DNA of 64,000 nucleotides from a virus (Duplodnaviria; Caudoviricetes), in IMG/VR virus record IMGVR_UViG_3300027798_000027, positions 23,578 to 87,577 of that record; one strand, 5' to 3'. Every line of letters starts with the position of its first letter. Position 1 is the stretch's first letter. The notes below the pieces were generated by a model. It ran no database searches. It saw nothing but the letters and a program-made list of their open reading frames with translations, and had not been told where the DNA came from. Below, in pieces: positions 1 to 16,896 of this stretch. Made by a program: the position numbers and the translations under genes.

Positions 1-260
1 ACCCAGTAAACAATTCTTTAAGGTTTGTTGTTAATATAAACTTTATATAAAATCGCAGGGTATCAAACCATCGCCCTGGCTCCATGTTGCCAAACCTTCC
101 TATGGGGATATCAGGCACATTCTGTGTCAGGCATATGGGGGATACAAGGTTTGTTATTCTATTAGGGGTTATGGGGATACTTTTGGCTTCCCCGCAAAAA
201 TAGGATACTAACCGCTATTGCCCTCTTAGGGCATTGAAAGGTTTGATAGTCCTATTTTTC
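1..260. repeat. Non-coding region with interspersed short repeats (TATGGGG(G)ATA x3, AAGGTTTG x3 plus inverted GGTTTG copies, small hairpins)
   Basis: TATGGGG(G)ATA at 101, 134 and 170; AAGGTTTG at 20, 146 and 238; hairpin TGCCCT-CTT-AGGGCA at 219-233; no ORF in the track before 299. Confidence 0.6.
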
Positions 261-263
261 GCC

Positions 264-292
264 TTGCTTTTTTCGCCGAAATTTGGTATGAT
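264..292 (+). promoter_or_regulatory. sigma70/SigA-type promoter, leaderless
   Basis: TTGCTT(264-269)-N17-TATGAT(287-292) with TG extension; ATG 6 nt downstream at 299. Confidence 0.7.
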
Positions 293-298
293 GGATAT

Positions 299-442
299 AT
301 GACAAATGAAGAAATAGCAGACCTATTAAATAAAGCATCTTATAAGATTTGGGACACCGCCAAAGTAATGAAAAACCAAGACTATCACGATGGTGTGGTT
401 AAGGGTCTTAAGATGGCATCTAACATTGTTTCTAAACTATGA
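299..442 (+). CDS. Small hypothetical protein (47 aa)
   Basis: Read by hand: MTNEEIADLLNKASYKIWDTAKVMKNQDYHDGVVKGLKMASNIVSKL; directly after a promoter; stop overlaps next ATG. Confidence 0.7.
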   Translation: MTNEEIADLLNKASYKIWDTAKVMKNQDYHDGVVKGLKMASNIVSKL

Positions 443-597
443 TGGATACAAACCTTACTTGGGCAGAAGAGGATGTTAATCTTTGGAAGGGTTGGACCTT
501 TAGCCCTGAAAAAAATAGATACTACTTTAATGATATTGGCAATGAGTCTCTTGCAGCCTTTTGGGCAGATAATTTTTTGAATCAGGCGTATGAGTAA
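439..597 (+). CDS. Small acidic/aromatic hypothetical protein (52 aa)
   Basis: Read by hand: MMDTNLTWAEEDVNLWKGWTFSPEKNRYYFNDIGNESLAAFWADNFLNQAYE; ATGA coupling to upstream ORF. Confidence 0.7.
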   Translation: MMDTNLTWAEEDVNLWKGWTFSPEKNRYYFNDIGNESLAAFWADNFLNQAYE

Positions 598-648
598 AGA
601 TATTGTTGATCTAGCCATTTCAATGACAGAGATGATACAATAATGGAT

Positions 649-1410
649 ATGATTATACAAATTATGGGGTTGCCTGGATCTGGCAAAACAGAATTAGCAA
701 AAGCCTTAAAAGAACGAATTAACGCTATTCATCTCAATGCAGATGAAGTACGTGCTACAGTTAACTCTGATCTTGGATTTACTCTAGAAGATCGTATAGA
801 GCAGGCAAGACGCATGGGTGAGATAGCAAGACTTATATCTAAGCAAGGAGTTGCTCCAGTAATTGTTGACTTTGTTTGTCCAACAAAAGAAACTCGTGAA
901 GCATTTGGTAAGCCAAATATTTTTATTTGGATGAACACAATTTCTGAAGGTAGATTTGAAGATACAAATAAAGTGTTTGAAAAACCTGATAACTTTGATA
1001 TTATTTTTGATTCACATCAAATGGATCAAAATCAAAAAGCATCTTATGTAATTAAAAAATTTAGTTTACATGACTGGTCAGCACCGACAACACTAATGCT
1101 TGGTAGATACCAGCCTTGGCACGAAGGCCATCATGCTCTTTACAGAGAAGCAGGAAAGAGAACTGATCAAGTTCTGCTTGGAGTTCGTAATACATACAAC
1201 ACTACTGAAAAAGATCCACTTAAGTTTGATCAGGTAAAAGAATATATTGCCAAAGATGAATTGATGGATGGAGCATTAGTATTAAGACTACCGAACATTA
1301 CCAACATTATTTATGGTCGTGATGTAGGATATAAAATTGAGCAAGTGGATTTGGGGGCAGACATTCATGCTATTTCGGCTACGCAAAAACGCAAAGAAAT
1401 GGGTATTTAA
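649..1410 (+). CDS. cysC: Adenylylsulfate (APS) kinase-like domain fused to HxGH nucleotidyltransferase domain
   Basis: N-terminal GLPGSGKT P-loop, LNADEVR, DLGFTLEDR, VIVDFVCP as in CysC; C-terminal LGRYQPWHEGH motif; start moved to ATG 649 because TGATACAAT lies 7 nt upstream. Confidence 0.8.
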   Translation: MIIQIMGLPGSGKTELAKALKERINAIHLNADEVRATVNSDLGFTLEDRIEQARRMGEIARLISKQGVAPVIVDFVCPTKETREAFGKPNIFIWMNTISEGRFEDTNKVFEKPDNFDIIFDSHQMDQNQKASYVIKKFSLHDWSAPTTLMLGRYQPWHEGHHALYREAGKRTDQVLLGVRNTYNTTEKDPLKFDQVKEYIAKDELMDGALVLRLPNITNIIYGRDVGYKIEQVDLGADIHAISATQKRKEMGI

Positions 1411-1459
1411 AGTCTGGAATTTTATAACCAAGCCTAACAATATGGAGTGGCCGTCATGA
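1367..1459 (+). CDS. Possible overlapping 30-aa ORF bridging cysC and DUF2061
   Basis: MLFRLRKNAKKWVFKVWNFITKPNNMEWPS; GGGGG upstream; stop overlaps ATG 1456 (ATGA). Confidence 0.35.
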   Translation: MLFRLRKNAKKWVFKVWNFITKPNNMEWPS

Positions 1460-1662
1460 ATGTAACCAAACAAAGATCAGCAGTAAAGGCTATTGTTTGG
1501 CGTTGCATTGGCACAGCAGATACTTTTGTCATTTCATGGTGGATAACTAAAGAACCCATTACAGCAGGAGCAATTGCAAGTTTTGAGGTAGTTACAAAAA
1601 CAATTCTTTATTACTTTCATGAGCGTGGATGGAACAAGGTTAAATGGGGGAGGGTTAAATGA
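1456..1662 (+). CDS. DUF2061-like small membrane protein
   Basis: RSAVKAIVWRCIGTADT...TKTILYYFHERGWNKVKWG pattern; GGAG SD before ATG 1456. Confidence 0.8.
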   Translation: MNVTKQRSAVKAIVWRCIGTADTFVISWWITKEPITAGAIASFEVVTKTILYYFHERGWNKVKWGRVK

Positions 1663-2390
1663 AAAAAATAATTAAAAAAAATATTTTTAATAAAAAAGAA
1701 AAAAGAGTTTTAAGTTACGAATCTAATATTGAAACCTATTTAAATCCAATAATACCAGCAAAAAGAGTTATTCCAGATTGGTATAAAAAAATACCACAAT
1801 GGCTTGATAATAAAATGTTTAATGATAATTTTACAATTAGGCCAACCGTAAAACTATGTGTGCCATTTTTAGATGCCTTGTCTATTGGTTATGTAATTAC
1901 TCTTCCCTTTGACTTATACATTAAAGAAAATGATGGAGTCCCAACTATTATATGGCCAAGTAATGCAGAAAGGTTTTCAGATCCTAGAGGCGAGGTAGCA
2001 AACGAAAAACTTGTTCCAACTGGACATTATTCTATTGAGTTTCTTTGGCATCCCTGGGCTGCTTATACTGTTCCAAAAGGATATAGTATTTTATTTACTC
2101 ATCCATTAAATAGAAATGATTTGCCATTTACAACCTTAAGTGGAGTAATTGATGGAGGGTTGGTAATGTCTCCTCAAGGAAATATTCCATTTTATCTTAA
2201 AAAAGGATTTACTGGACTTATTGAACAAGGAACGCCAATAGCACAATTAATACCATTTCGTCAAGAAAACTGGAACTCAAAAGAAATAAAAGGTCTGTTA
2301 AAAATTGGAAAAATGAATTATGATTCTTCTAACTCTGTGTTTAGGGGATGGTATAAAAAAACATTTTGGACAAAAAAAGAATATAACTAA
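1659..2390 (+). CDS. Uncharacterised protein, dUTPase-like/DUF6065-like beta fold
   Basis: IPDWYK...TVKLCVPFLDALSIGY...PKGYSILFTHPLNR...GTPIAQLIPF; shares patterns with the 21021-21815 product. Confidence 0.6.
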   Translation: MKKIIKKNIFNKKEKRVLSYESNIETYLNPIIPAKRVIPDWYKKIPQWLDNKMFNDNFTIRPTVKLCVPFLDALSIGYVITLPFDLYIKENDGVPTIIWPSNAERFSDPRGEVANEKLVPTGHYSIEFLWHPWAAYTVPKGYSILFTHPLNRNDLPFTTLSGVIDGGLVMSPQGNIPFYLKKGFTGLIEQGTPIAQLIPFRQENWNSKEIKGLLKIGKMNYDSSNSVFRGWYKKTFWTKKEYN

Positions 2391-2575
2391 AATTTATAGT
2401 CTAATTTAATATTAAAGGATACTTCACACTTTTTACAGTATGCAGTAGGACTATCTTTTGTATGATAGGTAGTTGATACCAAGAATACCAAACCTTCTTT
2501 ATGCATATCCACATACTTAGGATCTACAAAACCATATAGTAGTGGGATTAGTTTGTTATTGCAATGCGGACACAT
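2387..2575 (-). CDS. Small zinc-ribbon-like protein
   Basis: CPHC near the N-terminus and CKKC near the C-terminus. Confidence 0.6.
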   Translation of the reverse strand: MCPHCNNKLIPLLYGFVDPKYVDMHKEGLVFLVSTTYHTKDSPTAYCKKCEVSFNIKLDYKF

Positions 2576-2576
2576 A

Positions 2577-2915
2577 TCAAGGTCTTATCCTGTATGAGTA
2601 TGTGTTAAGAGGCTCGTAGTTTGTTCCACCAGTGCTTTTGTTATACCGTGCCACAAGTGAGTTATATCTATTAACAATATCATCTATTACGGAGTTTGCT
2701 TTGTCTACCGTCCGAACATGGGCATCTTGTTCTCTTATTAAGTCTAACTTACTGCTTGCAATAATGTCACTTGTGTATCTTATACAATAGTTAGATTGAT
2801 CTAAAATCATCTTTCGGGATTGTTTTAAATCTCCTCCCAAAAATAACAAAGCGGTAGATAGGATTACGATCAAGAATGATTGCACCCAGATTATGCCTTT
2901 AAGTTTAAATCTCAT
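2577..2915 (-). CDS. Membrane-anchored coiled-coil protein
   Basis: N-terminal hydrophobic helix followed by a helical region; TATAAT 8 nt upstream of ATG. Confidence 0.65.
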   Translation of the reverse strand: MRFKLKGIIWVQSFLIVILSTALLFLGGDLKQSRKMILDQSNYCIRYTSDIIASSKLDLIREQDAHVRTVDKANSVIDDIVNRYNSLVARYNKSTGGTNYEPLNTYSYRIRP

Positions 2916-2923
2916 ACATAACT

Positions 2924-2965
2924 ATTATACCCTATCTTGACATATTGCTCAAATTTTGATATACT
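2924..2965. promoter_or_regulatory. Back-to-back divergent promoters
   Basis: Plus strand: TTGACA(2937-2942)-N17-TATACT(2960-2965), near consensus. Minus strand: TATAAT at 2924-2929. Confidence 0.8.
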
Positions 2966-2973
2966 TGATCTAT

Positions 2974-3081
2974 ATGTCGGCTAACAGGGTTGTTATTTGT
3001 GAGATATGCAGTAAAGAAATACAGGTAAGATTAGCAATGGCATCTGAAACTTTACACAATCACATGAAAGAGCATAAATGA
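2974..3081 (+). CDS. 35-aa C2H2 zinc-finger-like microprotein
   Basis: MSANRVVICEICSKEIQVRLAMASETLHNHMKEHK: CxxC...HxxxH; follows the consensus promoter; ATGA overlap with 3078. Confidence 0.7.
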   Translation: MSANRVVICEICSKEIQVRLAMASETLHNHMKEHK

Positions 3082-3269
3082 AAAAAATAAAAGAGTTTGA
3101 AGAATTCAACAAGCCTGTTGATTTAATTGTTCATACTAAATGTCCAGATAAATGGTTGCTAATAGATAGAGAAACTGGAGAAATATATCAAGGAAGTTCT
3201 GCAGGTCATTGGAATAGGCTTGATCCAGTTATCAAAGATAACCATAACTTTACAAAACAACCTGAATAG
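3078..3269 (+). CDS. Hypothetical protein
   Basis: ORF track; coupled to the upstream ORF. Confidence 0.7.
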   Translation: MKKIKEFEEFNKPVDLIVHTKCPDKWLLIDRETGEIYQGSSAGHWNRLDPVIKDNHNFTKQPE

Positions 3270-3283
3270 GATATACTTATAAT

Positions 3284-3682
3284 ATGAAAAAAATAATCAT
3301 AACTTCTTTATTAATTGCATTGTTAATCCCAAACTCATCTGCTCAGGCTGCAACAAAATCATTAAACACTAAAGGCAATAAGTCTTCATGTAAAAATATT
3401 AAGGCAAATTATAAGTCAGAAGTGATTGCTAATTGGTCTAATGGCTTAGCAAGTGATCAAGATGTGTTAAAAGAAATAGATTTAAACATAAACATGCTTA
3501 CTGCAAAGCAAAAACCTACAACTGGTAAAATTAAAACAACTATTTCTTCTTGGATTACATCAGAAAAAAATACACAAATTGCAATAACTGATAAAAACTT
3601 TGAAGCAATTACTACTGCTATGAATTTAAAAATTTCTTCAGTTACTAATTTTGACAAACTATGTAAGTCTATAGAAAAATAA
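3284..3682 (+). CDS. Secreted hypothetical protein with signal peptide
   Basis: MKKIIITSLLIALLIPNSSAQA signal peptide with AQA cleavage site; TATACT-N6-ATG. Confidence 0.75.
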   Translation: MKKIIITSLLIALLIPNSSAQAATKSLNTKGNKSSCKNIKANYKSEVIANWSNGLASDQDVLKEIDLNINMLTAKQKPTTGKIKTTISSWITSEKNTQIAITDKNFEAITTAMNLKISSVTNFDKLCKSIEK

Positions 3683-3683
3683 T

Positions 3684-3806
3684 ATGGACGAAAAAAAAAT
3701 ACGTGAACAGATAGCCAGGGACATTGAGGCTATTGATACTAAGCAAAGTAGTGTTAATGCAGTTGGAATAAAGATTCTTGCTGCAAAGATTGCTAGGGGT
3801 GAGTAA
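3684..3806 (+). CDS. 40-aa hypothetical protein, paralogue of the 3927-4148 product
   Basis: MDEKKIREQIARDIEAIDTKQSSVNAVGIKILAAKIARGE. Confidence 0.7.
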   Translation: MDEKKIREQIARDIEAIDTKQSSVNAVGIKILAAKIARGE

Positions 3807-3832
3807 CTAGCCAAATCTGGTATCATAGAAGT

Positions 3833-3934
3833 ATGTTCTGTGAGTCCTGTGGTAGCAAACTGATTGGTGGAGACTGCTCCAACTGCTATACCAATTCTGC
3901 TGCTTTAAAAGAATTTGAGGAAGAAGATGACTAA
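3833..3934 (+). CDS. 33-aa zinc-ribbon microprotein with acidic tail
   Basis: MFCESCGSKLIGGDCSNCYTNSAALKEFEEEDD; TGGTATCAT-N6-ATG. Confidence 0.7.
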   Translation: MFCESCGSKLIGGDCSNCYTNSAALKEFEEEDD

Positions 3935-4148
3935 CTGGACTGAAGAACTTAACGATAAACAAAAAGAAGATGTCTGGAACTTTGTTGTTTTTACTGTTAA
4001 AGAAATAAGAGAGCAGATTGCTAAAGACATTGAAGCAACTATTCCACTTTGGAAGTCAAAAGGCTTATTAAAGTCTCGTAGAACACAAAAAGCCTTTGAA
4101 GCATCTGCTGCAATTGCTAGAGGACAGAACGAACAGATAAATGGCTAA
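3927..4148 (+). CDS. Hypothetical protein
   Basis: ORF track with start moved to ATG 3927 (GAGGA SD); contains IREQIAKDIEA...AIARG. Confidence 0.75.
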   Translation: MTNWTEELNDKQKEDVWNFVVFTVKEIREQIAKDIEATIPLWKSKGLLKSRRTQKAFEASAAIARGQNEQING

Positions 4149-5100
4149 CATAGTCTTTCTTGGCAACTTTGAAGTGCCTTATAGTAGTGAGAATCATCAT
4201 GCTAAGTCTTTGGAATCTCTTGGGCATACCGTGCAAAAATTGCAAGAGAAACAAGCGGGCAGCACAGAAATATTAAATGCAGCATTAAACTCTAATCTAT
4301 TCATATGGGTACACACACATAGATGGCAAACTCCAGGATCTAGGTCTATGACTGATGTGTTAAAAGAATTAAAGGCTGCTGGTATACCAACTATAACTTA
4401 TCATTTAGATTTGTGGTTTGGCATTGAGCGTGAAAAAGATTTAAAGGGTGATGACTTCTACACAAACATAGGTCATTTCTTTGCTACAGATAAGTTAATG
4501 TGTGATTGGTTTAATGAAAACACAAGTGTTAAGGGTCACTTCTTGCCTGCTGGAGTGTATGATAAAGAGTGTTATGTCCATCAAGATTACGATCCAAATA
4601 ACTTTGAGCATGACATTATTTTTGTTGGTAGCAGAGGATATCATCATGAACATAAATACCGTCCACAACTAATAGATTTCTTACGAAAGACATACGGTAA
4701 AAGGTTTTTACATGTAGGTGGAGATGGTGACACTGGCACTGTTCGTGGTGAAGCGCTTAATCGCATGTATGCAAAAAGCAAGGTAGCCATAGGAGATAGT
4801 CTTAACATTAATTTTAACTATCCATACTACACTAGCGATAGGTTGTTTGAGAGTACTGGTCGTGGTGGGTTTACTATTTATCCTCGCATCAAGGGGCTTG
4901 ATGAATACTTTGAAGATGGTAAAGAGATTATATTTTATGAACATGGTAACCTTGAAGATCTTAAACAAAAAATAGATTACTACATTTTAGATGGATTGAC
5001 TAGAGAAGAAATAAGGATTGCTGGTCATGAGCGGACTAAAAAAGAACATACATATGTTCATAGATGGTCAAGCATATTAGAAACCTTAAGCATAAAATGA
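4141..5100 (+). CDS. CgeB-like GT-B glycosyltransferase (Glyco_trans_1_2)
   Basis: IIFVGS...YR..L, SDRLFESTGRGGF, YFEDGKEIIFY, AGHERTKKEHTY..RW. Confidence 0.8.
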   Translation: MANIVFLGNFEVPYSSENHHAKSLESLGHTVQKLQEKQAGSTEILNAALNSNLFIWVHTHRWQTPGSRSMTDVLKELKAAGIPTITYHLDLWFGIEREKDLKGDDFYTNIGHFFATDKLMCDWFNENTSVKGHFLPAGVYDKECYVHQDYDPNNFEHDIIFVGSRGYHHEHKYRPQLIDFLRKTYGKRFLHVGGDGDTGTVRGEALNRMYAKSKVAIGDSLNINFNYPYYTSDRLFESTGRGGFTIYPRIKGLDEYFEDGKEIIFYEHGNLEDLKQKIDYYILDGLTREEIRIAGHERTKKEHTYVHRWSSILETLSIK

Positions 5101-5984
5101 AATATTTAGTTACGGGTGGTGCTGGCTTTATTGGATCAAACCTTGTTGATAAGTTAATTAGTCTTGGAAATGATGTTATTTGTATTGATGATGAGTCTGC
5201 AGAATGTCATGAACAGTTCTATTGGAATGATAAAGCACAAAACTATAAGTATGATGTCTGTGACTATGATTTAATTGCACCACTTTTTGGTGGCGTTGAC
5301 TGCGTGTTTCACGTTGCATCTGATGCAAGAATACAGCCAGCAATATTAAATCCTAAAAAATCTATTCAATCAAACGCAGTAGGAACAGCCAATGTTCTTG
5401 AACTTTGTAGGGTTAACAAGGTAGATAGATTAATCTATTCAAGCACATCTTCTTCTTATGGTAAAAAGGCTTTGCTTCCAAACCAGGAAACACAATCACC
5501 TGATCCACTAACTCCATACTCTGCTGCTAAGGTTTTTGGTGAAAACCTTGCAAAAGTTTATTATAATCTTTATGGACTAAAAACAATATCTCTTAGATAC
5601 TTCAATGTCTATGGAGATAGACAGCCATTGAAGGGTCAATATGCACCAGTAATAGGACTATTCTTAAAGCAATACTATGAATCAAAGCCACTAACAGTAG
5701 TTGGCGATGGATCTCAGCGCAGAGACTTTACTCATATATCAGACGTAATAGAAGCAAACATTCTTGCATCTGAGGTTGAAAATGGATTTGGGGAAGTATA
5801 TAACGTTGGGTATGGAAGTAACTATTCTATACTTGATATTGCTAATATGATTTCAAATGATATTAAATTTATTCCGTCAAGAATTGGTGAGGTGCAAGAA
5901 ACTCTTGCATCTAATTCAAAGTTTAAAGATTTAACTGAATGGGTTCCAAAGGTATCTTTAATGGATTGGTTGCAAAATGACTGA
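5097..5984 (+). CDS. NAD-dependent nucleotide-sugar epimerase/dehydratase
   Basis: MKYLVTGGAGFIGS, YSSTSS, PYSAAK (YxxxK), LRYFNVYG, GDGSQRRDF; ATGA overlap. Confidence 0.9.
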   Translation: MKYLVTGGAGFIGSNLVDKLISLGNDVICIDDESAECHEQFYWNDKAQNYKYDVCDYDLIAPLFGGVDCVFHVASDARIQPAILNPKKSIQSNAVGTANVLELCRVNKVDRLIYSSTSSSYGKKALLPNQETQSPDPLTPYSAAKVFGENLAKVYYNLYGLKTISLRYFNVYGDRQPLKGQYAPVIGLFLKQYYESKPLTVVGDGSQRRDFTHISDVIEANILASEVENGFGEVYNVGYGSNYSILDIANMISNDIKFIPSRIGEVQETLASNSKFKDLTEWVPKVSLMDWLQND

Positions 5985-6690
5985 AATGATTAAGGCTACT
6001 GTTAACGGGGAATTTGAAATAATGTTACCAAAGCATCGTGCAGATAGGCCAGAATGGTATCAACCACATGGTTGGGAAAAAATTAGATTAAAATCAATGC
6101 ATGAAAATATCGGTAAAGGCGATGTTGTTTACTATGTTGGAGCAGAAGAAGGAGAGATGCCTGCCCTATGTCAAATGTGGGGAGCAGAGGTAGTTTTATT
6201 TGAACCCAATCCAAAGGTTTGGTCACACTTTCCTTTACTTTGGAGTGCCAACAATTTAGAAAAACCAATTGCATGTATTCCTGGGTTTGCATCAGATAAA
6301 GATAATAAACTTGCACGTATTTATTATGGCGAGTTTCCACCAGAAGCAGATGCTCCTATTGAGGCTGCTCATGGATTTAAAGAATTGCAGTATGAAGCAG
6401 ATAAATATGGTCAAACAAAAATTGATACGCTTGTCTATGAAAAAGGAATGAAACCGCCAACAGCAATATCCCTTGATGTTGAGGGTAGTGAATGGAGGGT
6501 CCTAGGAGGGGCTGAAAGGGTCCTTAGAGAGCACAAACCTAAGATTTGGTTGTCTGGACACCCAGAATTTATGATGATGTATTGGAAAGAATACTTGCAT
6601 GATTTAAGACAGTTTATTAAGGGTATTGGCTATAAAGAAACATTGCTTGATTATCAACATGAAGTACACTTATATTATGAATCATATTAA
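5977..6690 (+). CDS. FkbM-family methyltransferase
   Basis: VVYYVGAEEG, VVLFEPNP, ISLDVEGSEWRVLGGA. Confidence 0.8.
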   Translation: MTEMIKATVNGEFEIMLPKHRADRPEWYQPHGWEKIRLKSMHENIGKGDVVYYVGAEEGEMPALCQMWGAEVVLFEPNPKVWSHFPLLWSANNLEKPIACIPGFASDKDNKLARIYYGEFPPEADAPIEAAHGFKELQYEADKYGQTKIDTLVYEKGMKPPTAISLDVEGSEWRVLGGAERVLREHKPKIWLSGHPEFMMMYWKEYLHDLRQFIKGIGYKETLLDYQHEVHLYYESY

Positions 6691-7531
6691 AGCATATCTT
6701 TACTCAGTTAAACAAGAAGATTGTGCTGCTGATAAATGGGATTACGGTTTATTAAAACAATTTTTTAATAAAAATAATATTAAACCAGACAAAGTAACGA
6801 CCTTGCCTAACATAGATAGAGCCTTTGTTGTTATTCCTGGACCACAAAATGTAGATTATGAAGATCAAATATCTGAAGAGTTAAGTAAGATAAGCAGGGT
6901 AGTTCTATTTATTACTGGAGATGAAAGCGCTACCTTTAAGGTTGATAAGATAGAGCATAGTAATATTGAGATTTGGATTCAATATCCCCACAGAAAACAT
7001 TCACAATATAATAAATTAGCGTTAGGTGTTCCACAACATCTATCAAATAATTTACCAGAGTATCAAGATAAATCTTACGATGTATTTTTTTCAGGACAAA
7101 TAACTCATCAAAGAAGACAAGAACTCGCAACTGTTATGCCTGACATACCAAACTCTTTTTATAATCCGACTAATGGATTTGCGGAAGGCTTAAGTCCAAA
7201 ATCATATTACGATAAAATGTTTTTATCAAAGATTGTTCCTTGCCCTAGTGGAGCAATGGTTATTGATTCATTTAGATTCTATGAAGCAATTGAAATGCTT
7301 TGTTTTCCCATAGGAGATAAGTTAGATTCAAAAATGCAAAATACAGATTTTTTTAATTTTTTATTTCAAGGTGAGCACTCAATAAAAACTGTTGAAAATT
7401 GGCAAACCTTATCTAATTTATTACCTGACTTATTAAATAACTACACATTTGAAATGCATCAAATTGTTTGTTGGTGGATTAAATATAAAAGAGATCTTTT
7501 TATTGAGTTAATGAGGCAAATAAATGCATAA
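6677..7531 (+). CDS. Exostosin/GT47-like glycosyltransferase
   Basis: YDVFFSGQITHQRR, YYDKMFLSKIVPCPSG, DSFRFYEAIEMLCFPI; probable start ATG 6677. Confidence 0.65.
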   Translation: MNHIKAYLYSVKQEDCAADKWDYGLLKQFFNKNNIKPDKVTTLPNIDRAFVVIPGPQNVDYEDQISEELSKISRVVLFITGDESATFKVDKIEHSNIEIWIQYPHRKHSQYNKLALGVPQHLSNNLPEYQDKSYDVFFSGQITHQRRQELATVMPDIPNSFYNPTNGFAEGLSPKSYYDKMFLSKIVPCPSGAMVIDSFRFYEAIEMLCFPIGDKLDSKMQNTDFFNFLFQGEHSIKTVENWQTLSNLLPDLLNNYTFEMHQIVCWWIKYKRDLFIELMRQINA

Positions 7532-8285
7532 AAGAGATATAACAATTGTCATGGCTACTTCTGTAATTACAAATCACCCAAGCACAAAAATGATAGATCA
7601 AACTATTAGTGATATTCGTGTTCATTTTCCAGACAACGAAATTATTATGCAGATAGATGGTCTTAGGGAAGAACAACAAAATCGTAAAAAAGATTATGAT
7701 AAATATAAAAATCGCATTTTGTGGAAATGTTTACATGAAGATAAAAACATATTACCATTTATATTTAAAGAGCATAGTCATCAAACCAACATGATGCGTC
7801 AAACAATTACTGAAGTTAAAACACCGCTATTACTTTATGTTGAAGGCGATGCTCCTTTAACTCCAGACACACCAATAGATTGGGACAAGTGTTTAGATAT
7901 GTTTGAATACAATAAAGCAAATACTATTCGTTTTCATTTTGAAGCATTTATACCAAAAGATCACGAACATCTTATGTTTGGATTAGAAGATGGCTTTATG
8001 AAAACTACACAATGGAGTCAGCGACCACATTTAAGTAGAAAAAAATATTATAAAGATATTGTGCTTCCAAGATGTAAAGATAAATTTTTTATAGAAGATA
8101 CATTTCATGGAGCAATTCAAGATGATATATCTCCATATGGGCAGTTTAATCAAGAGGGTTGGGAGATGCATAAACTTTGGATTTATCACCCTGAAGGTAA
8201 TATTAAACGCTCTTATCATTTAGATGGTCGTCAAGGCGGAAGAAAGTATACTTCTGATGATGTAACTTGGGGGTATAAAGAATGA
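7524..8285 (+). CDS. GT-A fold (GT2-like) glycosyltransferase
   Basis: ITIVMATS at the N-terminus, TPLLLYVEGD acidic motif, WSQRPHL, SYHLDGR. Confidence 0.6.
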   Translation: MHKRDITIVMATSVITNHPSTKMIDQTISDIRVHFPDNEIIMQIDGLREEQQNRKKDYDKYKNRILWKCLHEDKNILPFIFKEHSHQTNMMRQTITEVKTPLLLYVEGDAPLTPDTPIDWDKCLDMFEYNKANTIRFHFEAFIPKDHEHLMFGLEDGFMKTTQWSQRPHLSRKKYYKDIVLPRCKDKFFIEDTFHGAIQDDISPYGQFNQEGWEMHKLWIYHPEGNIKRSYHLDGRQGGRKYTSDDVTWGYKE

Positions 8286-9319
8286 GACTGGGGATCATAG
8301 CAAGATCAGACAACACTGGCCTTGGTAATCAGACTAAAGAGTTAGTTAATATGCTTAACCCTGATAAAGTTCTTTTGATTGACTCTACCCCGTTTAATAA
8401 CAACAAGCAACATCCACACTGGTATGACCAATACAGTTGTATCAAGACACAAGGTTTTCCATCTGTTCAACAGATAAAAATGTTTTTAGGAGATGTAGAT
8501 GTTGTATTAAGTTGTGAAACATTTTATGATCAAAATTTTGTAAGGTTTGCAAATAGACGTGGTGTAAAGACCATTCTTCAATATAACTATGAGTTGTTTG
8601 GTCACTTGTCAAACCCAGAACTTCCACTGCCAACTGTATTGTTATCGCCTAGTTTATGGCAAATTGAAACAATTCAAAGCATGTTTGGAGATAGAACAAA
8701 AATAATTCACCTTCCGCCACCAACCAATCCTGAGTTATTTACAACTGTAAAAAATAATAACATTTCTAAATCACATAATAGACTATTACACATTGCTGGT
8801 AAGAAGGCAGCCAAAGATAGAAACGGTACTGAAACTGTAATAAATATGTTAAAACACTCTAAAGCCGATTATGAGTTAGTTATTAGAAGTCAAAGTGAAG
8901 TAGTAACTAATGTAACAGACTCAAGGCTAAAGATTGAAATTGGCAATCCAGAAAACAGGGAAGACCTATACAATGGCTTTGATGCTATGGTTTTACCTAG
9001 ACGATATGCTGGTCTTTGTTTACCGATGAATGAGGCCTTGCTTTCTGGTCTTCCCGTTTTTATGACAAATGTTTCACCCAATAATCAGATCTTGCCACAG
9101 GATTGGTTAGTTGACTCAGATTCCATTGGAACCATTAGAACAAAGGTTAGAATTGATTTGGTTGAAGCAAATAATGTTTTGTTAGCACAAACAATTGATA
9201 AGTATATGTCTATCAATGATAAAACTAATTATAAACAACAGGCTTATGAGTTAGGGTTTAACAATTTTGCACCAGCAATATTAAAAGAAAAATACTTAGA
9301 ACTTATTTTTCAAATCTAG
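8282..9319 (+). CDS. GT-B (GT4-like) glycosyltransferase
   Basis: DLYNGFDAMVLPRRYAGLCLPMNEALLSGLPVF, the GT4 C-terminal signature. Confidence 0.8.
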   Translation: MRLGIIARSDNTGLGNQTKELVNMLNPDKVLLIDSTPFNNNKQHPHWYDQYSCIKTQGFPSVQQIKMFLGDVDVVLSCETFYDQNFVRFANRRGVKTILQYNYELFGHLSNPELPLPTVLLSPSLWQIETIQSMFGDRTKIIHLPPPTNPELFTTVKNNNISKSHNRLLHIAGKKAAKDRNGTETVINMLKHSKADYELVIRSQSEVVTNVTDSRLKIEIGNPENREDLYNGFDAMVLPRRYAGLCLPMNEALLSGLPVFMTNVSPNNQILPQDWLVDSDSIGTIRTKVRIDLVEANNVLLAQTIDKYMSINDKTNYKQQAYELGFNNFAPAILKEKYLELIFQI

Positions 9320-9995
9320 TTTTTTTACCAAATTTATCTTTAAGTATTTTATTAAATATATTATTAAATGAACTATCTGAACTAGATAAATAAGTATGAT
9401 CATTTATGTTTAAATTATAAGACTTAAGAACTAGTGGTCCAGAGTTGTAAACCTTAACATCTTCCATTTGTGTGCCACCCACATCAAATTTATTTCCGTA
9501 TATTGATCTCCATAAGAATTGATCTAAAAGTTCTAGCACTACCTTTAATTTTTCTTTTTCCATAATCATAGGAACGTGGAGTTCATAGTCTAAAGGGTTT
9601 TCAAATCCTAATGCTTTAAGTTTTTTATATGTTCCTGAAAGTTTTCTTGTGTATTGAGAGTTACCATTTAATTTTTGATATAAGTTTATTTTATCTAATA
9701 GGTATCCACTATGAAAATTTTCTATCTTATTTATTTTTTTAATAATATAAAAGTCATCATTCATTAAAATAAACGATTGTGATATTTCTTGTGAAAAAGA
9801 AATTGCTTCTAAATTTTTTACAGCATTTTTATACTTTGATTCTTTTTGTTCTACTTTTATATAGTTTCCTGTATACCAGTCAGGCTTACCACCGACAAGC
9901 CATATATTTGCTTCTGGAAAACTTTCAACAACAGATCTAATTGAATACTTTAGTTCTTCGTTTATTCCGTCTTTACATATATATACAAAGTCCAT
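9303..9995 (-). CDS. Stealth CR2-like protein (putative hexose-1-phosphotransferase)
   Basis: NEELKYSIRSV...PDW...FILMNDDFY...YELHVPM. Confidence 0.6.
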   Translation of the reverse strand: MDFVYICKDGINEELKYSIRSVVESFPEANIWLVGGKPDWYTGNYIKVEQKESKYKNAVKNLEAISFSQEISQSFILMNDDFYIIKKINKIENFHSGYLLDKINLYQKLNGNSQYTRKLSGTYKKLKALGFENPLDYELHVPMIMEKEKLKVVLELLDQFLWRSIYGNKFDVGGTQMEDVKVYNSGPLVLKSYNLNINDHTYLSSSDSSFNNIFNKILKDKFGKKTRFEK

Positions 9996-10007
9996 TAGTC
10001 CCCATTA

Positions 10008-10049
10008 TAAAAAAATAAAGAGGGCAAGGTTTAAGTTTGCCCCCTTTAT
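10008..10049 (-). terminator. Rho-independent terminator after the holin gene
   Basis: Minus strand GGGGGCAA-loop-TTGCCCTC followed by TTTATTTTTTT. Confidence 0.75.
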
Positions 10050-10057
10050 AGAATAAA

Positions 10058-10336
10058 CTACTTTTTCTTAGCAGTTTTCTTTTTTGGTGCACTTTTAACA
10101 GGCACAATCTTGCCAAGAGCATCTGAAATAATACCAGTATCTGGTAGTACGCCAAACGATTTATCATTTGGATTTAACGCTCTCAATGCGACGGGCGCTA
10201 AAGCAGCAACTAGTGCAGCCCATAGATCTTTTGGATCTGTTACGCCAGCCATGTAAAGTGCAATTACTGCGCCAAGAACGGATCGTCCGTATGATGCTAG
10301 CATTGCCTTTGACTTATCGTTTAATAAGTTATTCAT
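10058..10336 (-). CDS. Putative holin
   Basis: Small protein with two hydrophobic helices, ASYGRSVLGA...ALRALNP, Lys-rich C-terminal tail; AGGAGG SD. Confidence 0.65.
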   Translation of the reverse strand: MNNLLNDKSKAMLASYGRSVLGAVIALYMAGVTDPKDLWAALVAALAPVALRALNPNDKSFGVLPDTGIISDALGKIVPVKSAPKKKTAKKK

Positions 10337-10344
10337 TATTCCTC

Positions 10345-10503
10345 CTAGGATATAATTTGTGTTAGTGTTTTATAGCCAATCCATAAACCAATAATTCCTG
10401 CGACTCCCGCAAAAACTGGTGGTGCTGGTACTGGCAATTTGAATGCTGCGAACACAACACCGCATCCAAAACCTGTGATAATTGATAACAGAACATCTCT
10501 CAT
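10345..10503 (-). CDS. XapX (DUF1427)-like small membrane protein
   Basis: Read by hand: MRDVLLSIITGFGCGVVFAAFKLPVPAPPVFAGVAGIIGLWIGY..., showing the LPxPAPP-xxAG signature. Confidence 0.8.
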   Translation of the reverse strand: MRDVLLSIITGFGCGVVFAAFKLPVPAPPVFAGVAGIIGLWIGYKTLTQIIS

Positions 10504-10504
10504 G

Positions 10505-10867
10505 TTATTTTTTTCCTTGACCCATCTCTGGTAAAAGCGCTAAAAGTTTGTCAGAATAGTTATCCAAACCTTTTACCTTCAACTCATCTGAAACCTCTTT
10601 AATGGTTTGTTGTGACTTTTCAATATACTCAAATGCCCAGTCTCTAGAATCAGATAGGAATTTTATAAAGTTTTCTTTATGTATTGTATCGTCAGACATA
10701 TTGATGCCGTCATTGACTTGAGAGTTTACTTCTTCAAGTGCCCTGTTTTTTATAAAAAGTTCAGCCACCAGCAAGTTAGACTTTTTTAGTTTATCAAACG
10801 TTGCCCAATAAGATAGTGCAAAGGAAAAAGACAGGGTAGCAAAAAATATCAGAAACATCATCTCCAT
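10505..10867 (-). CDS. Membrane-anchored hypothetical protein
   Basis: N-terminal TM helix, FIKFLSDSRDWAFEYIE; TACAAT-N7-ATG. Confidence 0.75.
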   Translation of the reverse strand: MEMMFLIFFATLSFSFALSYWATFDKLKKSNLLVAELFIKNRALEEVNSQVNDGINMSDDTIHKENFIKFLSDSRDWAFEYIEKSQQTIKEVSDELKVKGLDNYSDKLLALLPEMGQGKK

Positions 10868-10999
10868 AATATCTATTGTACTCTATTCTCAGTTTGGCTA
10901 CTGCCTAAATAGGTAAGCCAAATTAGCCTAGAAACAGCCATTACAGCCACTTTTACAGCAGCCCCCATACCTTTTGACCCACCCATTTTGTATATTTTT

Positions 11000-11125
11000 T
11001 TAGTCTTTTTCTATATCAAAAATATCTAAATCAGACATTTTTTTAAAATTTGCTGCTGTCCAAAGGGATACGGCAGTTAAGAAAGATAAAACTATTAGTA
11101 TTATTATCTTTGTTTTCTTTTTCAT
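11000..11125 (-). CDS. 41-aa single-TM microprotein
   Basis: MKKKTKIIILIVLSFLTAVSLWTAANFKKMSDLDIFDIEKD; ATGA coupling. Confidence 0.65.
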   Translation of the reverse strand: MKKKTKIIILIVLSFLTAVSLWTAANFKKMSDLDIFDIEKD

Positions 11126-11253
11126 TTTGTTATGGTTGCTCCACATCTTAGACATGCTACATAATTTTTACCAGTAAATGGACAAGAGCCAGCATCAACA
11201 AGATCGTGTGACTTTATCTTACAAATAAAAAACAATGTAATCTGTTTTATCAT
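11122..11253 (-). CDS. 43-aa Cys/His microprotein
   Basis: MIKQITLFFICKIKSHDLVDAGSCPFTGKNYVACLRCGATITK; overlaps the upstream stop. Confidence 0.65.
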   Translation of the reverse strand: MIKQITLFFICKIKSHDLVDAGSCPFTGKNYVACLRCGATITK

Positions 11254-11495
11254 TTTATTGCCTCTCTAGTAATTAACACTATGGCCCCACACTCCTCTAA
11301 TGCTTTTTTTAATTTTACCACATACTGTAATGCTGATATTTTATCATCATGCACCATGTGCAAAAATTTTCTTTCATCTAATTTTACAGTAAGGAAGTGT
11401 TCATTGTCAATAATCTCCACTCCAAAACCTTTGGGAGGCGTAATTGAATGCACAGCCCTACGCATGATGTCTGTATACATTATTTGTTGCTCCAT
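11250..11495 (-). CDS. Hypothetical protein
   Basis: ORF track; co-oriented with and coupled to neighbours. Confidence 0.7.
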   Translation of the reverse strand: MEQQIMYTDIMRRAVHSITPPKGFGVEIIDNEHFLTVKLDERKFLHMVHDDKISALQYVVKLKKALEECGAIVLITREAIK

Positions 11496-11533
11496 TTCAT
11501 TTTATTTTAATTATTCTATAGTAATAAATGTTT

Positions 11534-12178
11534 TTATTTATTGTAACCCAAATTATCAAATTCCCATTTCCACTCCTGAAAGATGAAGTTCATTTGATCA
11601 TTATTAAATATATCTGATGGGTCTATATTTTTTATTCCATGTTTTTTTTCAAATACATTTATACAGATTTCTGGGATATTGTGAGATTTTAATATTGGAT
11701 TAATTTGATCTTCAAGACCATCTTCATATCTAATAAACTTATCAATAATAATTTTTTTATTAAAGGTATAAAGAAATTTACTGCTTGGTAAAAATCTTGT
11801 TGTAAATAAATTTAGATCATTTTTATAATCAAAATAATTATCTACATATTTTTGTTTTTCTTTTTTGTTTAAATTATTCCAATCAACTTCAATAAGGTGT
11901 AAAGCCCAAAAAAAATTTGAAAGAACTGCGTCGTATGGATTTCTAATTATTGTATATGTTTTAACATCAGATAGATCTATGAGTTTTGATATTTCTTTAT
12001 ATGAAGCGTGACTTTTAAATCCTTGATAATTTCTAGGTTTATGATTTGGGTTTTTTGGTTCAATTGGAGTGACAATTGCATTGTCTGGAAGAACTTGTGA
12101 TAGTGCTACCTCTACAGAAGTTCCACCAACTTTTATATTTTTTAAAAACAAAAATTTATGGTCTTTAGAATAAATCAT
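11534..12178 (-). CDS. Sulfotransferase family 2-like protein
   Basis: FLFLKNIKVGGTSVE (5'-PSB-like) and IIRNPYDAVLS (3'-PB-like) motifs. Confidence 0.8.
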   Translation of the reverse strand: MIYSKDHKFLFLKNIKVGGTSVEVALSQVLPDNAIVTPIEPKNPNHKPRNYQGFKSHASYKEISKLIDLSDVKTYTIIRNPYDAVLSNFFWALHLIEVDWNNLNKKEKQKYVDNYFDYKNDLNLFTTRFLPSSKFLYTFNKKIIIDKFIRYEDGLEDQINPILKSHNIPEICINVFEKKHGIKNIDPSDIFNNDQMNFIFQEWKWEFDNLGYNK

Positions 12179-12181
12179 TTG

Positions 12182-12463
12182 TTACTCTATTGTTAAGGCT
12201 TGCCAGGTAGTTGCCCAGTCTTGTTTGGTTTTATGCTTATTAAACTCTCTTGAAACTTCTCCGCCTTCTAAATAAACACCGCCCCAAACACCCCACTCTT
12301 TTCCTGAAACACCATTAGCAAAACATATTTTTCTAACTGGACATTGTTTACAAAGTGCATCAACATCTCTTCTAGATCCTTCATGATCTTCGTATTTATC
12401 AAAAAATGCGTTGTTGTCCGTTCCCAAACATAAAGCCTGATCTTTCCACAAATGCTGTTTCAA
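12182..12463 (-). CDS. whiB: WhiB-family Fe-S transcription factor
   Basis: W...ALC...FF...C..CPV...C...GVWGG: four Cys plus GVWGG. Confidence 0.9.
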   Translation of the reverse strand: MKQHLWKDQALCLGTDNNAFFDKYEDHEGSRRDVDALCKQCPVRKICFANGVSGKEWGVWGGVYLEGGEVSREFNKHKTKQDWATTWQALTIE

Positions 12464-12465
12464 GA

Positions 12466-12675
12466 CTAATCCTTATACTTATTTGGTATATCCCAACCAT
12501 TACGGCCAGGTTTATAAACTCTATGTAAATACCATTTGTTTTTTACTCTAATGCCCATGGGAGATGTTTTTGCCGTATCAGATTCTTTTAAATCAATTAC
12601 ATCCCACGCATGCCAAATAAGGTTTTTATTTTTACTTACAATTTTTTCCATTGTGTTTAAACTTCTAATAATCAT
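12466..12675 (-). CDS. Hypothetical protein
   Basis: ORF track; AGGAG SD. Confidence 0.7.
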   Translation of the reverse strand: MIIRSLNTMEKIVSKNKNLIWHAWDVIDLKESDTAKTSPMGIRVKNKWYLHRVYKPGRNGWDIPNKYKD

Positions 12676-15364: not shown

Positions 15365-15742
15365 TTATTTTTTACGAGTAAGGCGTTTAAGTTCTTCTAT
15401 AGCCCAAACGTCTTGCTTGCGTAGTTTTGACATTTCTAGAGGATCAAAAGACTTATTTGTAAGAGTCACTATTGGCTCTTTTGCCAAAAAATCTATGTCT
15501 ACATAGGCCCTTTCCCATAAAGAAAGTATCTCAGCATTAACTCTATTAAGATGATCACTATAAAGTTCTGGCATCAACTCTTTAATTTTAGGTGTAAATG
15601 AATATAACAATGATCCATTTTCAGAATCAATACCCGCAACCTCTAAGCCACCCTCAAGTATTAACTTTTCAATCATTTCATTTTCACTTGAAGTCATAGT
15701 TTTCTCATCTGGATTAAATATTCTCTTGAATAGTTTTTTCAT
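15365..15742 (-). CDS. Hypothetical protein
   Basis: ORF track. Confidence 0.7.
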   Translation of the reverse strand: MKKLFKRIFNPDEKTMTSSENEMIEKLILEGGLEVAGIDSENGSLLYSFTPKIKELMPELYSDHLNRVNAEILSLWERAYVDIDFLAKEPIVTLTNKSFDPLEMSKLRKQDVWAIEELKRLTRKK

Positions 15743-15986
15743 AATTAATAAAGTTCTCCAACTCTGTCCTTGTTTTTGCCCCAGTTACACGGCTGAGTTC
15801 TCTACCGTCTTCTAATAAAATAAATGTAGGAATTGAACTTACTTTAAATCTTTCAACAAGTGATTGTTCGTAGTCAGCATCTATCATTTGAAATTCAAAA
15901 CCTTCTCTTTTCATTGCTTCAACAACTGGCTTTACTTTTTTACAAGGTTGACACCAGTCTGCTGTAAAATAAAAAACAGTTTTCAC
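15714..15986 (-). CDS. Thioredoxin
   Basis: FTADWCQPC active site, VSSIPTF cis-Pro motif. Confidence 0.9.
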   Translation of the reverse strand: MKTVFYFTADWCQPCKKVKPVVEAMKREGFEFQMIDADYEQSLVERFKVSSIPTFILLEDGRELSRVTGAKTRTELENFINYEKTIQENI

Positions 15987-16647: not shown

Positions 16648-16662
16648 ACTCATATTATACAT

Positions 16663-16836: not shown

Positions 16837-16867
16837 TGTTTCTCCTATAGTTATATCTAAGTATATC

Positions 16868-16896
16868 AAAAAGTGAGCAGTTTTTCAACTTGCTCA
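16868..16896 (-). terminator. Terminator after hsp20
   Basis: TGAGC-A-AGTT-GAAA-AACT-GCTCA followed by CTTTTTG. Confidence 0.75.

What the first reader, a model, noticed from the sequence alone, without database searches (positions are those of the whole stretch)
649..12178. Putative phage-encoded sulfation pathway: minimal fused PAPS synthase, DUF2061 and sulfotransferase
The 649-1410 product fuses a CysC-like APS kinase to a small HxGH (WHEGH) nucleotidyltransferase. ATP sulfurylase belongs to this superfamily, so this ~250-aa protein could be a very compact two-step PAPS synthase unlike canonical Sat-CysC or CysDNC (inference). It is followed by a DUF2061-like membrane protein. A Sulfotransfer_2-like enzyme, which would consume PAPS, lies at 11534-12178, and a glycosyltransferase operon lies between them. 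Together they suggest the phage makes its own activated sulfate to sulfate a phage-built glycan.
Basis: partly seen in the sequence, partly recalled or inferred. Interest (0 to 1): 0.78.

Follow-up and report, generated by a model that had tools for sequence, protein, structure and literature searches.

The report
Compact candidate PAPS synthase in phage
A 253-255-aa phage protein joins a shortened APS kinase to a very small nucleotidyltransferase, and comparison with other genomes suggests, without a biochemical test, that it makes activated sulfate (PAPS) by itself, so many phage 'cysC' genes may serve sulfation rather than sulfur assimilation.

Summary
Window 649-1410 encodes a fusion of an APS-kinase-like domain and a 110-aa HxGH nucleotidyltransferase. 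A DUF2061 gene follows it. A small sulfotransferase-like gene lies at 11534-12178, and glycosyltransferase genes lie between.

The PAPS-synthase reading gains independent support:
- The kinase-DUF2061 pair is kept in 79 of 80 related phage loci and sits at a different site in this genome.
- The same fusion is common in Alphaproteobacteria, where PAPS-type sulfotransferases are its commonest neighbours. 11 of 30 Sulfotransfer_3 hits lie within 2.5 kb of it.
- 14 of 30 fusion-bearing genomes lack Sat, CysD, CysN and CysH. In 25 of 30 the fusion is the only APS-kinase homologue.
- DUF2061 is fused to CysN in all 55 long DUF2061 proteins found.
- 7 of 9 complete or near-complete related phage genomes, this one included, carry sulfotransferase-like genes.

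By sequence the C-domain is closest to archaeal-type NMNAT, not Sat. No enzyme activity has been shown. The link to the glycosyltransferase island is not conserved, so the acceptor is unknown.

Other first-stage readers made the same reading on related DNA, unchecked. I rate it a new variant of a known kind, confidence about 0.6.

The parts
649..1410 (+). Fusion protein (P0001; the ORF can also start at 643): candidate one-polypeptide PAPS synthase
   Evidence: AF2 model pLDDT 95.9, pTM 0.88. Matches phrog_10255 over its full length at 9.6e-62.
649..1017 (+). N-domain (residues ~3-125): shortened APS-kinase-like P-loop kinase. It has GLPGSGKT, NADEVR, DLGFTLEDRIEQARR, DFVCPT and RFEDTNKVFEKP; the lid segment is missing.
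   Evidence: Pfam APS_kinase 3.2e-16. TIGR00455 scores 65.7 bits, below its cut-off of 138.7. PDB sequence hits are all APS kinases. Foldseek top 50 are all APS kinases, best E 3.4e-9.
1075..1407 (+). C-domain (residues ~145-255): minimal HxGH nucleotidyltransferase (GRYQPWHEGH, VR, NP, PNI, YGRDVGY, ISATQKR); proposed sulfate adenylyltransferase
   Evidence: Domain model pLDDT 95. VIA-align: NMNAT Z 9.5, PPAT 9.4, ATP sulfurylase 1v47 Z 8.2. Profile against PDB: NadM 1.3e-9 on positions 5-67 only, no Sat hit. Invariant residues listed.
1447..1662 (+). DUF2061 gene (P0003), conserved partner of the fusion
   Evidence: Pfam 4.5e-21. Follows the fusion in 79 of 80 related loci. DUF2061 is fused to CysN in 55 of 55 long DUF2061 proteins found. 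Hydropathy is weak, maximum 1.16.
11534..12178 (-). Small sulfotransferase-like protein (P0002), likely PAPS consumer; acceptor unknown
   Evidence: Sulfotransfer_1 3.5e-5. phrog_3347 2.3e-7. Motifs KVGGTS and RNPYDAVLS. It is the only Sulfotransfer_1 (PF00685) hit in the record; the other sulfotransferase probes were not run on it.
4141..9319 (+). Variable glycan-synthesis island (GT, epimerase/dehydratase, FkbM methyltransferase, two unknowns, GT1-like). It is context only; its membership in the sulfation module is not shown.
   Evidence: Homologues occur in only 2-11 of 80 related loci.
1659..2390 (+). Unknown 243-aa gene whose start overlaps the DUF2061 stop (ATGA). It is not linked to the cassette in relatives.
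   Evidence: phrog_7084; weak DUF6065 lead.

Best explanation
The two-gene cassette at 649-1662 is a self-contained sulfate-activation module. Proposed steps, all inferred: the C-terminal minimal HxGH domain adenylylates sulfate (ATP + sulfate -> APS + PPi). The N-terminal lid-less APS-kinase domain then phosphorylates the 3'-OH of APS to give PAPS. DUF2061 is a dedicated small partner of the sulfate-adenylylation step, perhaps a membrane tether or a link to sulfate supply. PAPS is used by phage sulfotransferases such as 11534-12178, and possibly by host ones. Shown here: the domain families and folds, the conserved residues, the gene linkage, and the distribution across genomes. Inferred: both enzyme activities, the role of DUF2061 and the acceptor.
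For: (1) The N-domain is APS-kinase by sequence and fold. The alignments put family-conserved D34, R37, F46, R51 and P80 on the APS-kinase motifs D-x-x-R, F, D-R and S-P. (2) The C-domain is an HxGH nucleotidyltransferase, the superfamily that holds Sat. Thermus ATP sulfurylase aligns over 110 of 114 residues, Z 8.2. Homology to NMNAT covers only the ATP-binding two-thirds. The remainder is short and carries an invariant G-R-D, which suits a very small anionic second substrate (inference). (3) In 76 bacterial loci the commonest flanking families are Sulfotransfer_3 (11) and Sulfotransfer_1 (9) among 136 neighbours; the next family has 4. 11 of 30 Sulfotransfer_3 hits in 30 genomes lie within 2.5 kb of a fusion gene, where about 0.04 would be expected by chance. 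(4) Sat is absent in 30 of 30 of these genomes. CysD, CysN and CysH are all absent in the same 14 of 30, including a closed 4.0-Mb chromosome and an isolate. 6 of those 14 have a sulfotransferase beside the fusion. (5) The fusion is the only APS-kinase-family hit in 25 of 30 genomes. (6) DUF2061 follows the fusion in 79 of 80 phage loci, and the pair sits at a different site in this genome. DUF2061 is fused to CysN in all 55 long DUF2061 proteins found. (7) Sulfotransferase-like genes with both PAPS motifs occur in 7 of 9 complete or near-complete related phage genomes. (8) In phage phiRSL1 the short kinase domain heads an operon that ends in a sulfotransferase.
Against: No biochemical data exist. 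By sequence the C-domain's nearest relatives are NMNAT/NadM (1.3e-9), and no Sat hit appears even at E 10. PF01747 does not detect it. The fold search does not separate NMNAT, PPAT, cytidylyltransferases and Sat (Z 9.5 to 8.2). The kinase domain departs from the canon. The first Asp of DGDN is mostly Asn, and D87A abolishes human APSK activity (PMC8528679). The lid is missing, and the domain scores below the TIGR00455 cut-off. Two complete related phage genomes (G006, G007) and the Sano-type phages carry the fusion with no detectable sulfotransferase. Most of the bacterial genomes are MAGs of unstated completeness. DUF2061 also lies next to unrelated genes such as pyrD and a GDP-mannose dehydratase.
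Confidence: 0.6

Rival explanations
1. Only the N-domain works in sulfate activation. It is an APS kinase that uses APS made by the host. The HxGH domain does something else, for example it acts as a regulatory or nucleotide-binding module, or as an unrelated adenylyltransferase.
For: The kinase assignment is the best-supported part. phiRSL1 pairs the same short kinase domain with a different C-domain. The C-domain is not Sat-like by sequence.
Against: 14 of 30 fusion-bearing genomes have no Sat and no CysDN to make APS, yet they keep the fusion, often beside a sulfotransferase. All catalytic-type motifs of the HxGH domain are invariant.
Confidence: 0.15
2. The pair makes a PAPS-like donor that is not PAPS: a 3'-phospho-nucleoside 5'-phospho-X with another small anion. 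The model is the Campylobacter route, in which a cytidylyltransferase and a CysC homologue build 3'-phospho-CDP-amidate (recalled from the literature, not checked here). The neighbouring 'sulfotransferases' would then transfer X.
For: The architecture (nucleotidyltransferase plus APS-kinase homologue) fits equally well. The kinase domain deviates from canonical CysC.
Against: The neighbours match ordinary PAPS-sulfotransferase families, with E-values down to 3.6e-50. DUF2061 is fused to CysN, a sulfate-specific enzyme. No genes for making another anion are conserved nearby.
Confidence: 0.1
3. It is an NAD salvage enzyme like NadR with the domains in reverse order: a ribosylnicotinamide-type kinase plus an NMN adenylyltransferase that restores NAD during infection.
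For: The best sequence and fold matches of the C-domain are NMNAT/NadM. Cultured phages with the fusion keep it among early or nucleotide-metabolism genes.
Against: The match covers only the ATP-binding part, and the rest of the NMNAT domain is absent. All scores lie far below the NMNAT family cut-offs. The kinase domain is APS-kinase type, not NadR-RNK type. The sulfotransferase and CysN links are left unexplained.
Confidence: 0.05
4. It is a phage nucleic-acid or nucleotide modification enzyme, with the kinase acting on DNA or a nucleotide precursor, as P-loop kinases do in thymidine hypermodification.
For: The phiRSL1 operon sits beside a thymidylate-synthase-family gene, and its GTs are annotated as DNA glucosyltransferases.
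Against: The family is common as a chromosomal gene in Alphaproteobacteria beside sulfotransferases. The residues that align with the APS-kinase motifs are conserved.
Confidence: 0.05

Closest known systems
Bifunctional PAPS synthases (animal PAPSS1/2; bacterial Sat-CysC fusions such as Aquifex; CysNC)
   Same: One polypeptide joins a nucleotidyl-transfer domain to an APS-kinase-fold domain. It is linked to PAPS-dependent sulfotransferases.
   Different: It has about 255 aa, against 550-630. The transferase part has 110 aa and is not detected by the Sat model PF01747 or by CysD/CysN models. The kinase lacks the lid and scores below the TIGR00455 cut-off. The domain order is kinase then transferase, as in animal PAPSS.
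APS kinase CysC (PF01583 / TIGR00455)
   Same: P-loop, D-x-x-R, F, D-R and (S/C)-P motifs. The fold matches APS kinases first.
   Different: Only profile positions 3-91 of 152 match. The first Asp of DGDN is usually Asn. The lid segment is deleted.
Archaeal-type NMN adenylyltransferase / NadM (1f9a, 2qjt)
   Same: GR(F/Y)QP(F/W)HxGH and the following NP motif. Best sequence hits 1.3e-9 and 1.4e-8; best fold Z 9.5.
   Different: Homology ends at about position 67 of 114. The second half is much shorter and carries the invariant YGRDVGY. NCBIfam scores are 19-25 bits against cut-offs of 127-181.
Sat-type ATP sulfurylase (PF01747; 1v47, 1j70)
   Same: Same HxxH nucleotidyltransferase superfamily. 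Z 8.2 over 110 aligned residues. A G-R-D motif after a strand recalls the GRDHAG loop of Sat (resemblance from memory; no residue-level alignment was obtained).
   Different: No sequence-level hit. It is about half the size of the Sat catalytic domain and has no N-terminal beta-barrel domain.
Phage 'cysC' auxiliary metabolic genes reported from freshwater phages
   Same: Probably the same genes. cysC-encoding freshwater phages with large genomes are reported, and whiB-encoding freshwater actinophages are treated separately in the same paper (PMC10914622). They are listed as not validated (PMC12713726).
   Different: Those papers read the genes as assimilatory sulfate reduction. Here no cysH occurs in 5 of 5 genomes checked, and the links are to sulfotransferases, an extra HxGH domain and DUF2061.

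Membership tests
APS kinase (CysC, PF01583/TIGR00455) | Sequence match above the family cut-off | tested here: inconclusive
   Pfam scores 60.2 bits, above the cut-off of 21.1, but covers only profile positions 3-91 of 152. TIGR00455 scores 65.7 bits, below its cut-off of 138.7.
APS kinase (CysC, PF01583/TIGR00455) | APS-kinase fold | tested here: met
   The Foldseek top 50 are all APS kinases, E 3.4e-9, target TM 0.6-0.76.
APS kinase (CysC, PF01583/TIGR00455) | DGDN motif with both aspartates (both needed in human PAPSS1, PMC8528679) | tested here: not met
   The second Asp (D34) is nearly invariant. The first position is mostly N, sometimes D, E or S.
APS kinase (CysC, PF01583/TIGR00455) | Mobile lid segment (KGLYKKAR-type; recalled from memory) | tested here: not met
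   The profile match stops at position 91. Only about 15 residues separate the strand at 93-97 from the FExP motif.
APS kinase (CysC, PF01583/TIGR00455) | Phosphorylates APS to PAPS | not testable with these tools
   Needs an enzyme assay.
Sat-type ATP sulfurylase (PF01747) | Sequence match to the family model | tested here: not met
   No PF01747 hit for the protein, in 30 fusion-bearing genomes, or against PDB sequences at E 10.
Sat-type ATP sulfurylase (PF01747) | HxxH nucleotidyltransferase fold | tested here: met
   1v47_B gives Z 8.2, rmsd 3.1, 110 residues aligned. Other Sat structures give Z 5.2-6.2.
Sat-type ATP sulfurylase (PF01747) | Forms APS from ATP and sulfate | not testable with these tools
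   Indirect support only: 14 of 30 fusion-bearing genomes lack Sat and CysDN.
Archaeal-type NMNAT / NadM | GRxQPxHxGH ATP-binding motif and N-terminal half | tested here: met
   Profile hits 1.3e-9 (2qjt) and 1.4e-8 (1f9a) over positions 5-67.
Archaeal-type NMNAT / NadM | Full-length match above the family cut-off, including the NMN-binding half | tested here: not met
   NF002243 scores 25.4 bits against 127; TIGR01527 scores 19.4 against 181. The domain has 114 aa against 164-181, and the second half aligns only weakly.
PAPS-dependent sulfotransferase (P0002, 11534-12178) | Family model match | tested here: inconclusive
   Sulfotransfer_1 scores 23.8 bits against a cut-off of 22, over a partial region. 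phrog_3347 gives 2.3e-7. The PF03567 genome search found nothing and its controls did not ring.
PAPS-dependent sulfotransferase (P0002, 11534-12178) | 5'-PSB (PKxGxT-like) and 3'-PB (RxPxxRxxS-like) motifs (established knowledge) | tested here: met
   KVGGTS at residues 16-21 and RNPYDAVLS at residues 79-87. G19, R79 and P81 are invariant among 8 phage sulfotransferase-like proteins.
DUF2061 (PF09834) | Family model match | tested here: met
   75.5 bits against a cut-off of 23.1, covering the full profile.
DUF2061 (PF09834) | Membrane protein, as the Pfam name predicts | tested here: inconclusive
   Kyte-Doolittle 19-residue maximum is 1.16 for the phage protein and 1.68 for a bacterial homologue.

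The most novel reading that the evidence does not exclude
The C-domain is a third kind of ATP sulfurylase beside Sat and CysDN: a 110-aa NMNAT-derived HxGH domain. Fused to a lid-less APS kinase, it would form the smallest known PAPS synthase (~253 aa), widespread in freshwater actinophage-like viruses and in Alphaproteobacteria that lack all assimilatory sulfate genes. DUF2061 would be a dedicated accessory of sulfate adenylylation, which explains its fusion to CysN.
Probability: 0.5. Interest if true: 0.8.

Novelty: new variant of a known kind. Interest (0 to 1): 0.72.

Why it matters
If the reading is right, four things follow.

- PAPS synthesis would have a new, very compact enzymatic solution that could serve sulfation biocatalysis.
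- A gene now counted as a phage 'cysC' marker of assimilatory sulfate reduction would instead mark virus-driven sulfation of unknown acceptors. The family is abundant: 7,503 of the 8,000 scored candidates matched at E <= 0.001.
- Bacteria that lack cysDNH could still sulfate their products.
- DUF2061, a family of unknown function, would gain a testable role in sulfate activation.

All of this can be tested with standard assays and E. coli cys mutants.

Tried and rejected
- **Near-identical phage records:** megablast of 1-12500 against the phage collection found nothing.
- **P0002 against cultured phages:** tblastn found nothing.
- **A1 as a locus query:** it was too diverse to use; the smaller alignment A3 worked.
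- **Relatives of a virus record:** The genome search does not draw them.
- **Conserved operon around the bacterial fusion genes:** clustering found none beyond sulfotransferases. My simple ORF caller also produced antisense ORFs in high-GC DNA, so I added a GC3 filter.
- **Sat homology of the C-domain by profile:** none appeared at E 10. The Foldseek top 50 held no Sat either.
- **Residue-level superposition on Sat:** not obtainable. The match between YGRDVGY and GRDHAG therefore remains a resemblance from memory.
- **Heterogeneous sulfotransferase profile A6:** it may be insensitive. Its blanks in G006 and G007 were repeated with PF13469 and phrog_3347, also blank.
- **DUF2061 'longer' search with the phage protein:** it found only tandem duplicates. 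The CysN fusion came up only through a bacterial query.
- **Literature:** searches found nothing on this fusion or on a DUF2061 function.
- **NadR-like NAD salvage reading:** considered and rejected for the reasons given under rival explanations.

Full report
**What is there**

The window is part of an 87.6-kb IMG/VR viral record. It has a WhiB gene and a DnaE-type polymerase about 55% identical to those of Streptomyces phages, plus RecA and DnaB. An actinobacterial host is therefore likely, but this is inference.

ORF 643/649-1410 (+) gives a 255/253-aa protein, P0001. Homologues are mostly 253 aa and align from residue 3. ORF 1447-1662 (+) is DUF2061 (4.5e-21). ORF 11534-12178 (-) is a small sulfotransferase-like protein, with Sulfotransfer_1 at 3.5e-5 and phrog_3347 at 2.3e-7. 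It carries KVGGTS and RNPYDAVLS, which correspond to the 5'-PSB and 3'-PB PAPS-binding motifs of sulfotransferases (established knowledge).

Between these genes lie a GT, an epimerase/dehydratase, an FkbM methyltransferase and a GT1-like gene on the plus strand. The sulfotransferase sits in a minus-strand block next to WhiB. The best sulfotransferase family match is not Sulfotransfer_2. The genes do not form a single operon.

**Anatomy of the fusion**

The N-domain matches APS kinase by sequence: Pfam 3.2e-16, and PDB hits from 4.5e-11 that are all APS kinases. It also matches by fold. The AF2 model has pLDDT 95.9 and pTM 0.88, and the Foldseek top 50 are all APS kinases.

The HMMER alignments place D34, R37, F46, R51 and P80 on the APS-kinase motifs. 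These residues are invariant or nearly so in 54 diverse homologues.

The domain is not canonical in three ways:
- Only profile positions 3-91 of 152 match, and it scores below the TIGR00455 cut-off.
- The lid region is missing.
- The first Asp of the DGDN motif is usually Asn. In human PAPSS1, D87A and D89A each abolish kinase activity (PMC8528679).

The C-domain (residues ~145-255) folds confidently on its own (pLDDT 95) as a minimal HxGH nucleotidyltransferase. VIA-align gives NMNAT Z 9.5, PPAT 9.4, NadM 9.3, several cytidylyltransferases at about 8.4, and Thermus ATP sulfurylase Z 8.2 with 110 of 114 residues aligned. The fold therefore places it in the superfamily but does not choose a subfamily.

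A C-domain profile (A7) hits NadM and archaeal NMNAT at 1.3e-9 and 1.4e-8, but only over positions 5-67, the ATP-binding part. No Sat appears at E 10. The rest of the domain is much shorter than in NMNAT and holds the invariant PNI...YGRDVGY...ISAT.

My inference is that the domain descends from an NMNAT-like ancestor, has lost the large acceptor-binding part, and has gained an invariant Arg-Asp loop. That suits a very small anionic acceptor.

**Evidence from related phages**

P0001 belongs to a very abundant family. 7,503 of the 8,000 scored candidates matched at E <= 0.001, many of them 82-96% identical. In 80 IMG/VR loci, DUF2061 follows the fusion in 79.

In relatives the pair lies between homologues of window genes 16663-17323 and 15365-15742, all on one strand. 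In this window that site holds three other small genes. The pair lies about 14 kb away on the other strand, next to a variable GT island. The two genes therefore sit together at different sites in different genomes.

Homologues of this particular sulfotransferase occur in only 4 of 80 loci, and the GT genes in 2-11.

At genome level the picture differs. Of the eight complete relatives, G002, G004 and G008 have Pfam-type sulfotransferase genes. G001, G003 and G005 have phrog_3347-like genes with PKTAGK and RNPxDAxxS motifs. G006 and G007 show none with three probes. No PAPS reductase family gene is present in five genomes checked.

**Evidence from bacteria**

The same fusion, at 43-51% identity, is common in chromosomes of Alphaproteobacteria. 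No operon is conserved around it.

Among 136 immediate neighbours at 76 loci, the commonest families are Sulfotransfer_3 (11) and Sulfotransfer_1 (9); the next family has 4.

In 30 whole genomes there are 30 Sulfotransfer_3 hits. 11 lie within 2.5 kb of a fusion gene and 16 within 20 kb (positions). About 0.04 would be expected within 2.5 kb by chance. In several genomes the only such sulfotransferase sits beside the fusion.

Sat is absent from all 30 genomes. CysD, CysN and the CysH/CysD family are absent together from the same 14 genomes. These include a closed 4.0-Mb Acetobacteraceae chromosome (G016) and the isolate Enterovirga sp. CN4-39 (G022). Six of the 14 have a sulfotransferase next to the fusion.

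In 25 of 30 genomes the fusion is the only APS-kinase-family match. A PAPS-type sulfotransferase next to an APS-kinase homologue, in a genome with no known way to make APS, is most simply explained if the fused HxGH domain makes APS.

**DUF2061**

A bacterial DUF2061 lies at the C-terminus of CysN in G039. All 55 proteins of 292-930 aa found with that DUF2061 region are CysN-DUF2061 fusions, named sulfate adenylyltransferase large subunit by their sources. This independently ties DUF2061 to sulfate adenylylation.

Its mechanism is open. Hydropathy is only weakly membrane-like. Other copies lie next to pyrD, a GDP-mannose dehydratase, or, in the phages, oxygenases.

**Cultured phages**

The fusion occurs in Xylella phages Sano and Salvo, Stenotrophomonas DLP6 and Clavibacter phage 33, among early genes and without DUF2061. 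No sulfotransferase was detected in Sano or Clavibacter phage 33. DLP6 has a phrog_3347 sulfotransferase about 90 kb from its fusion.

In phiRSL1 the short kinase domain is joined to a different C-domain. It heads an operon with three GTs, two nucleotidyltransferases and a sulfotransferase. The acceptor in phiRSL1 is unknown too.

**Verdict**

The best explanation is a self-contained PAPS synthase with a dedicated DUF2061 partner, feeding variable sulfotransferases (confidence about 0.6).

The rivals are:
- APS kinase only, with an unrelated C-domain (0.15).
- A PAPS-like donor with another anion (0.1).
- NadR-like NAD salvage (0.05).
- A nucleic-acid modification kinase (0.05).

The literature I could search treats phage cysC as an unvalidated assimilatory AMG (PMC10914622, PMC12713726). 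It says nothing on the extra domain, on DUF2061, or on this architecture.

Other first-stage readers of this scan proposed the same reading on related genomes. Those notes were unchecked. One of them led me to search whole genomes for sulfotransferases.

I class the finding as a new variant of a known kind. The chemistry and superfamily are known. The minimal enzyme, its partner and its distribution are not.

Noticed in passing
L190:85-1680:+ (G039) and proteins P0316-P0370: CysN (sulfate adenylyltransferase large subunit) carries a C-terminal DUF2061 domain in 55 protein clusters, some named Pseudolabrys or Rhodopseudomonas by their sources. DUF2061 takes the position that CysC takes in CysNC.
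   Followed up: partly
window 15714-16662 (-): The site where relatives hold the kinase-DUF2061 cassette has three other small genes here. By eye, one has a staphylococcal-nuclease-like motif (15983-16390) and one a thioredoxin-like CxxC (15714-15986). The slot appears to swap cassettes.
   Followed up: no
L210 (phiRSL1 NC_010811.2 165261-171498): Operon ORF238-ORF232: short APS-kinase-like protein, three GTs annotated as DNA glucosyltransferases, two nucleotidyltransferases and a phrog_3347 sulfotransferase (7e-72), next to a thymidylate-synthase-family gene. It could make a sulfated glycan or a DNA modification.
   Followed up: partly
window 31714-33174 (-) and 17418-19103 (-): The phage carries a tryptophan-halogenase-family gene (2e-88) and a NodU/CmcH-type carbamoyltransferase (2.5e-56).
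   Followed up: no
L198, L199, L200, L202, L205 (G002, G004, G006-G008): Many relatives carry a second, and G004 up to four, DUF2061 genes. These lie next to a 2OG-Fe(II) oxygenase and a CHAP-domain gene (L198) or a weak luciferase-like monooxygenase hit (L200).
   Followed up: partly
window 1659-2390 (+): An unknown 243-aa gene has its start overlapping the DUF2061 stop (phrog_7084; weak Atlas lead to DUF6065). In relatives its homologues lie upstream of the cassette, not after it.
   Followed up: partly
L173 (G002:C1:29942-33214): Three tandem short (195-223 aa) sulfotransferase-like genes sit side by side in one related phage. G008 has four sulfotransferase-like hits.
   Followed up: partly
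L001:5553-5996 (Xylella phage Sano gp34): The gene just upstream of the Sano fusion looked to me like a YbiA/NADAR-type protein (by eye, from memory). This was not tested.
   Followed up: no
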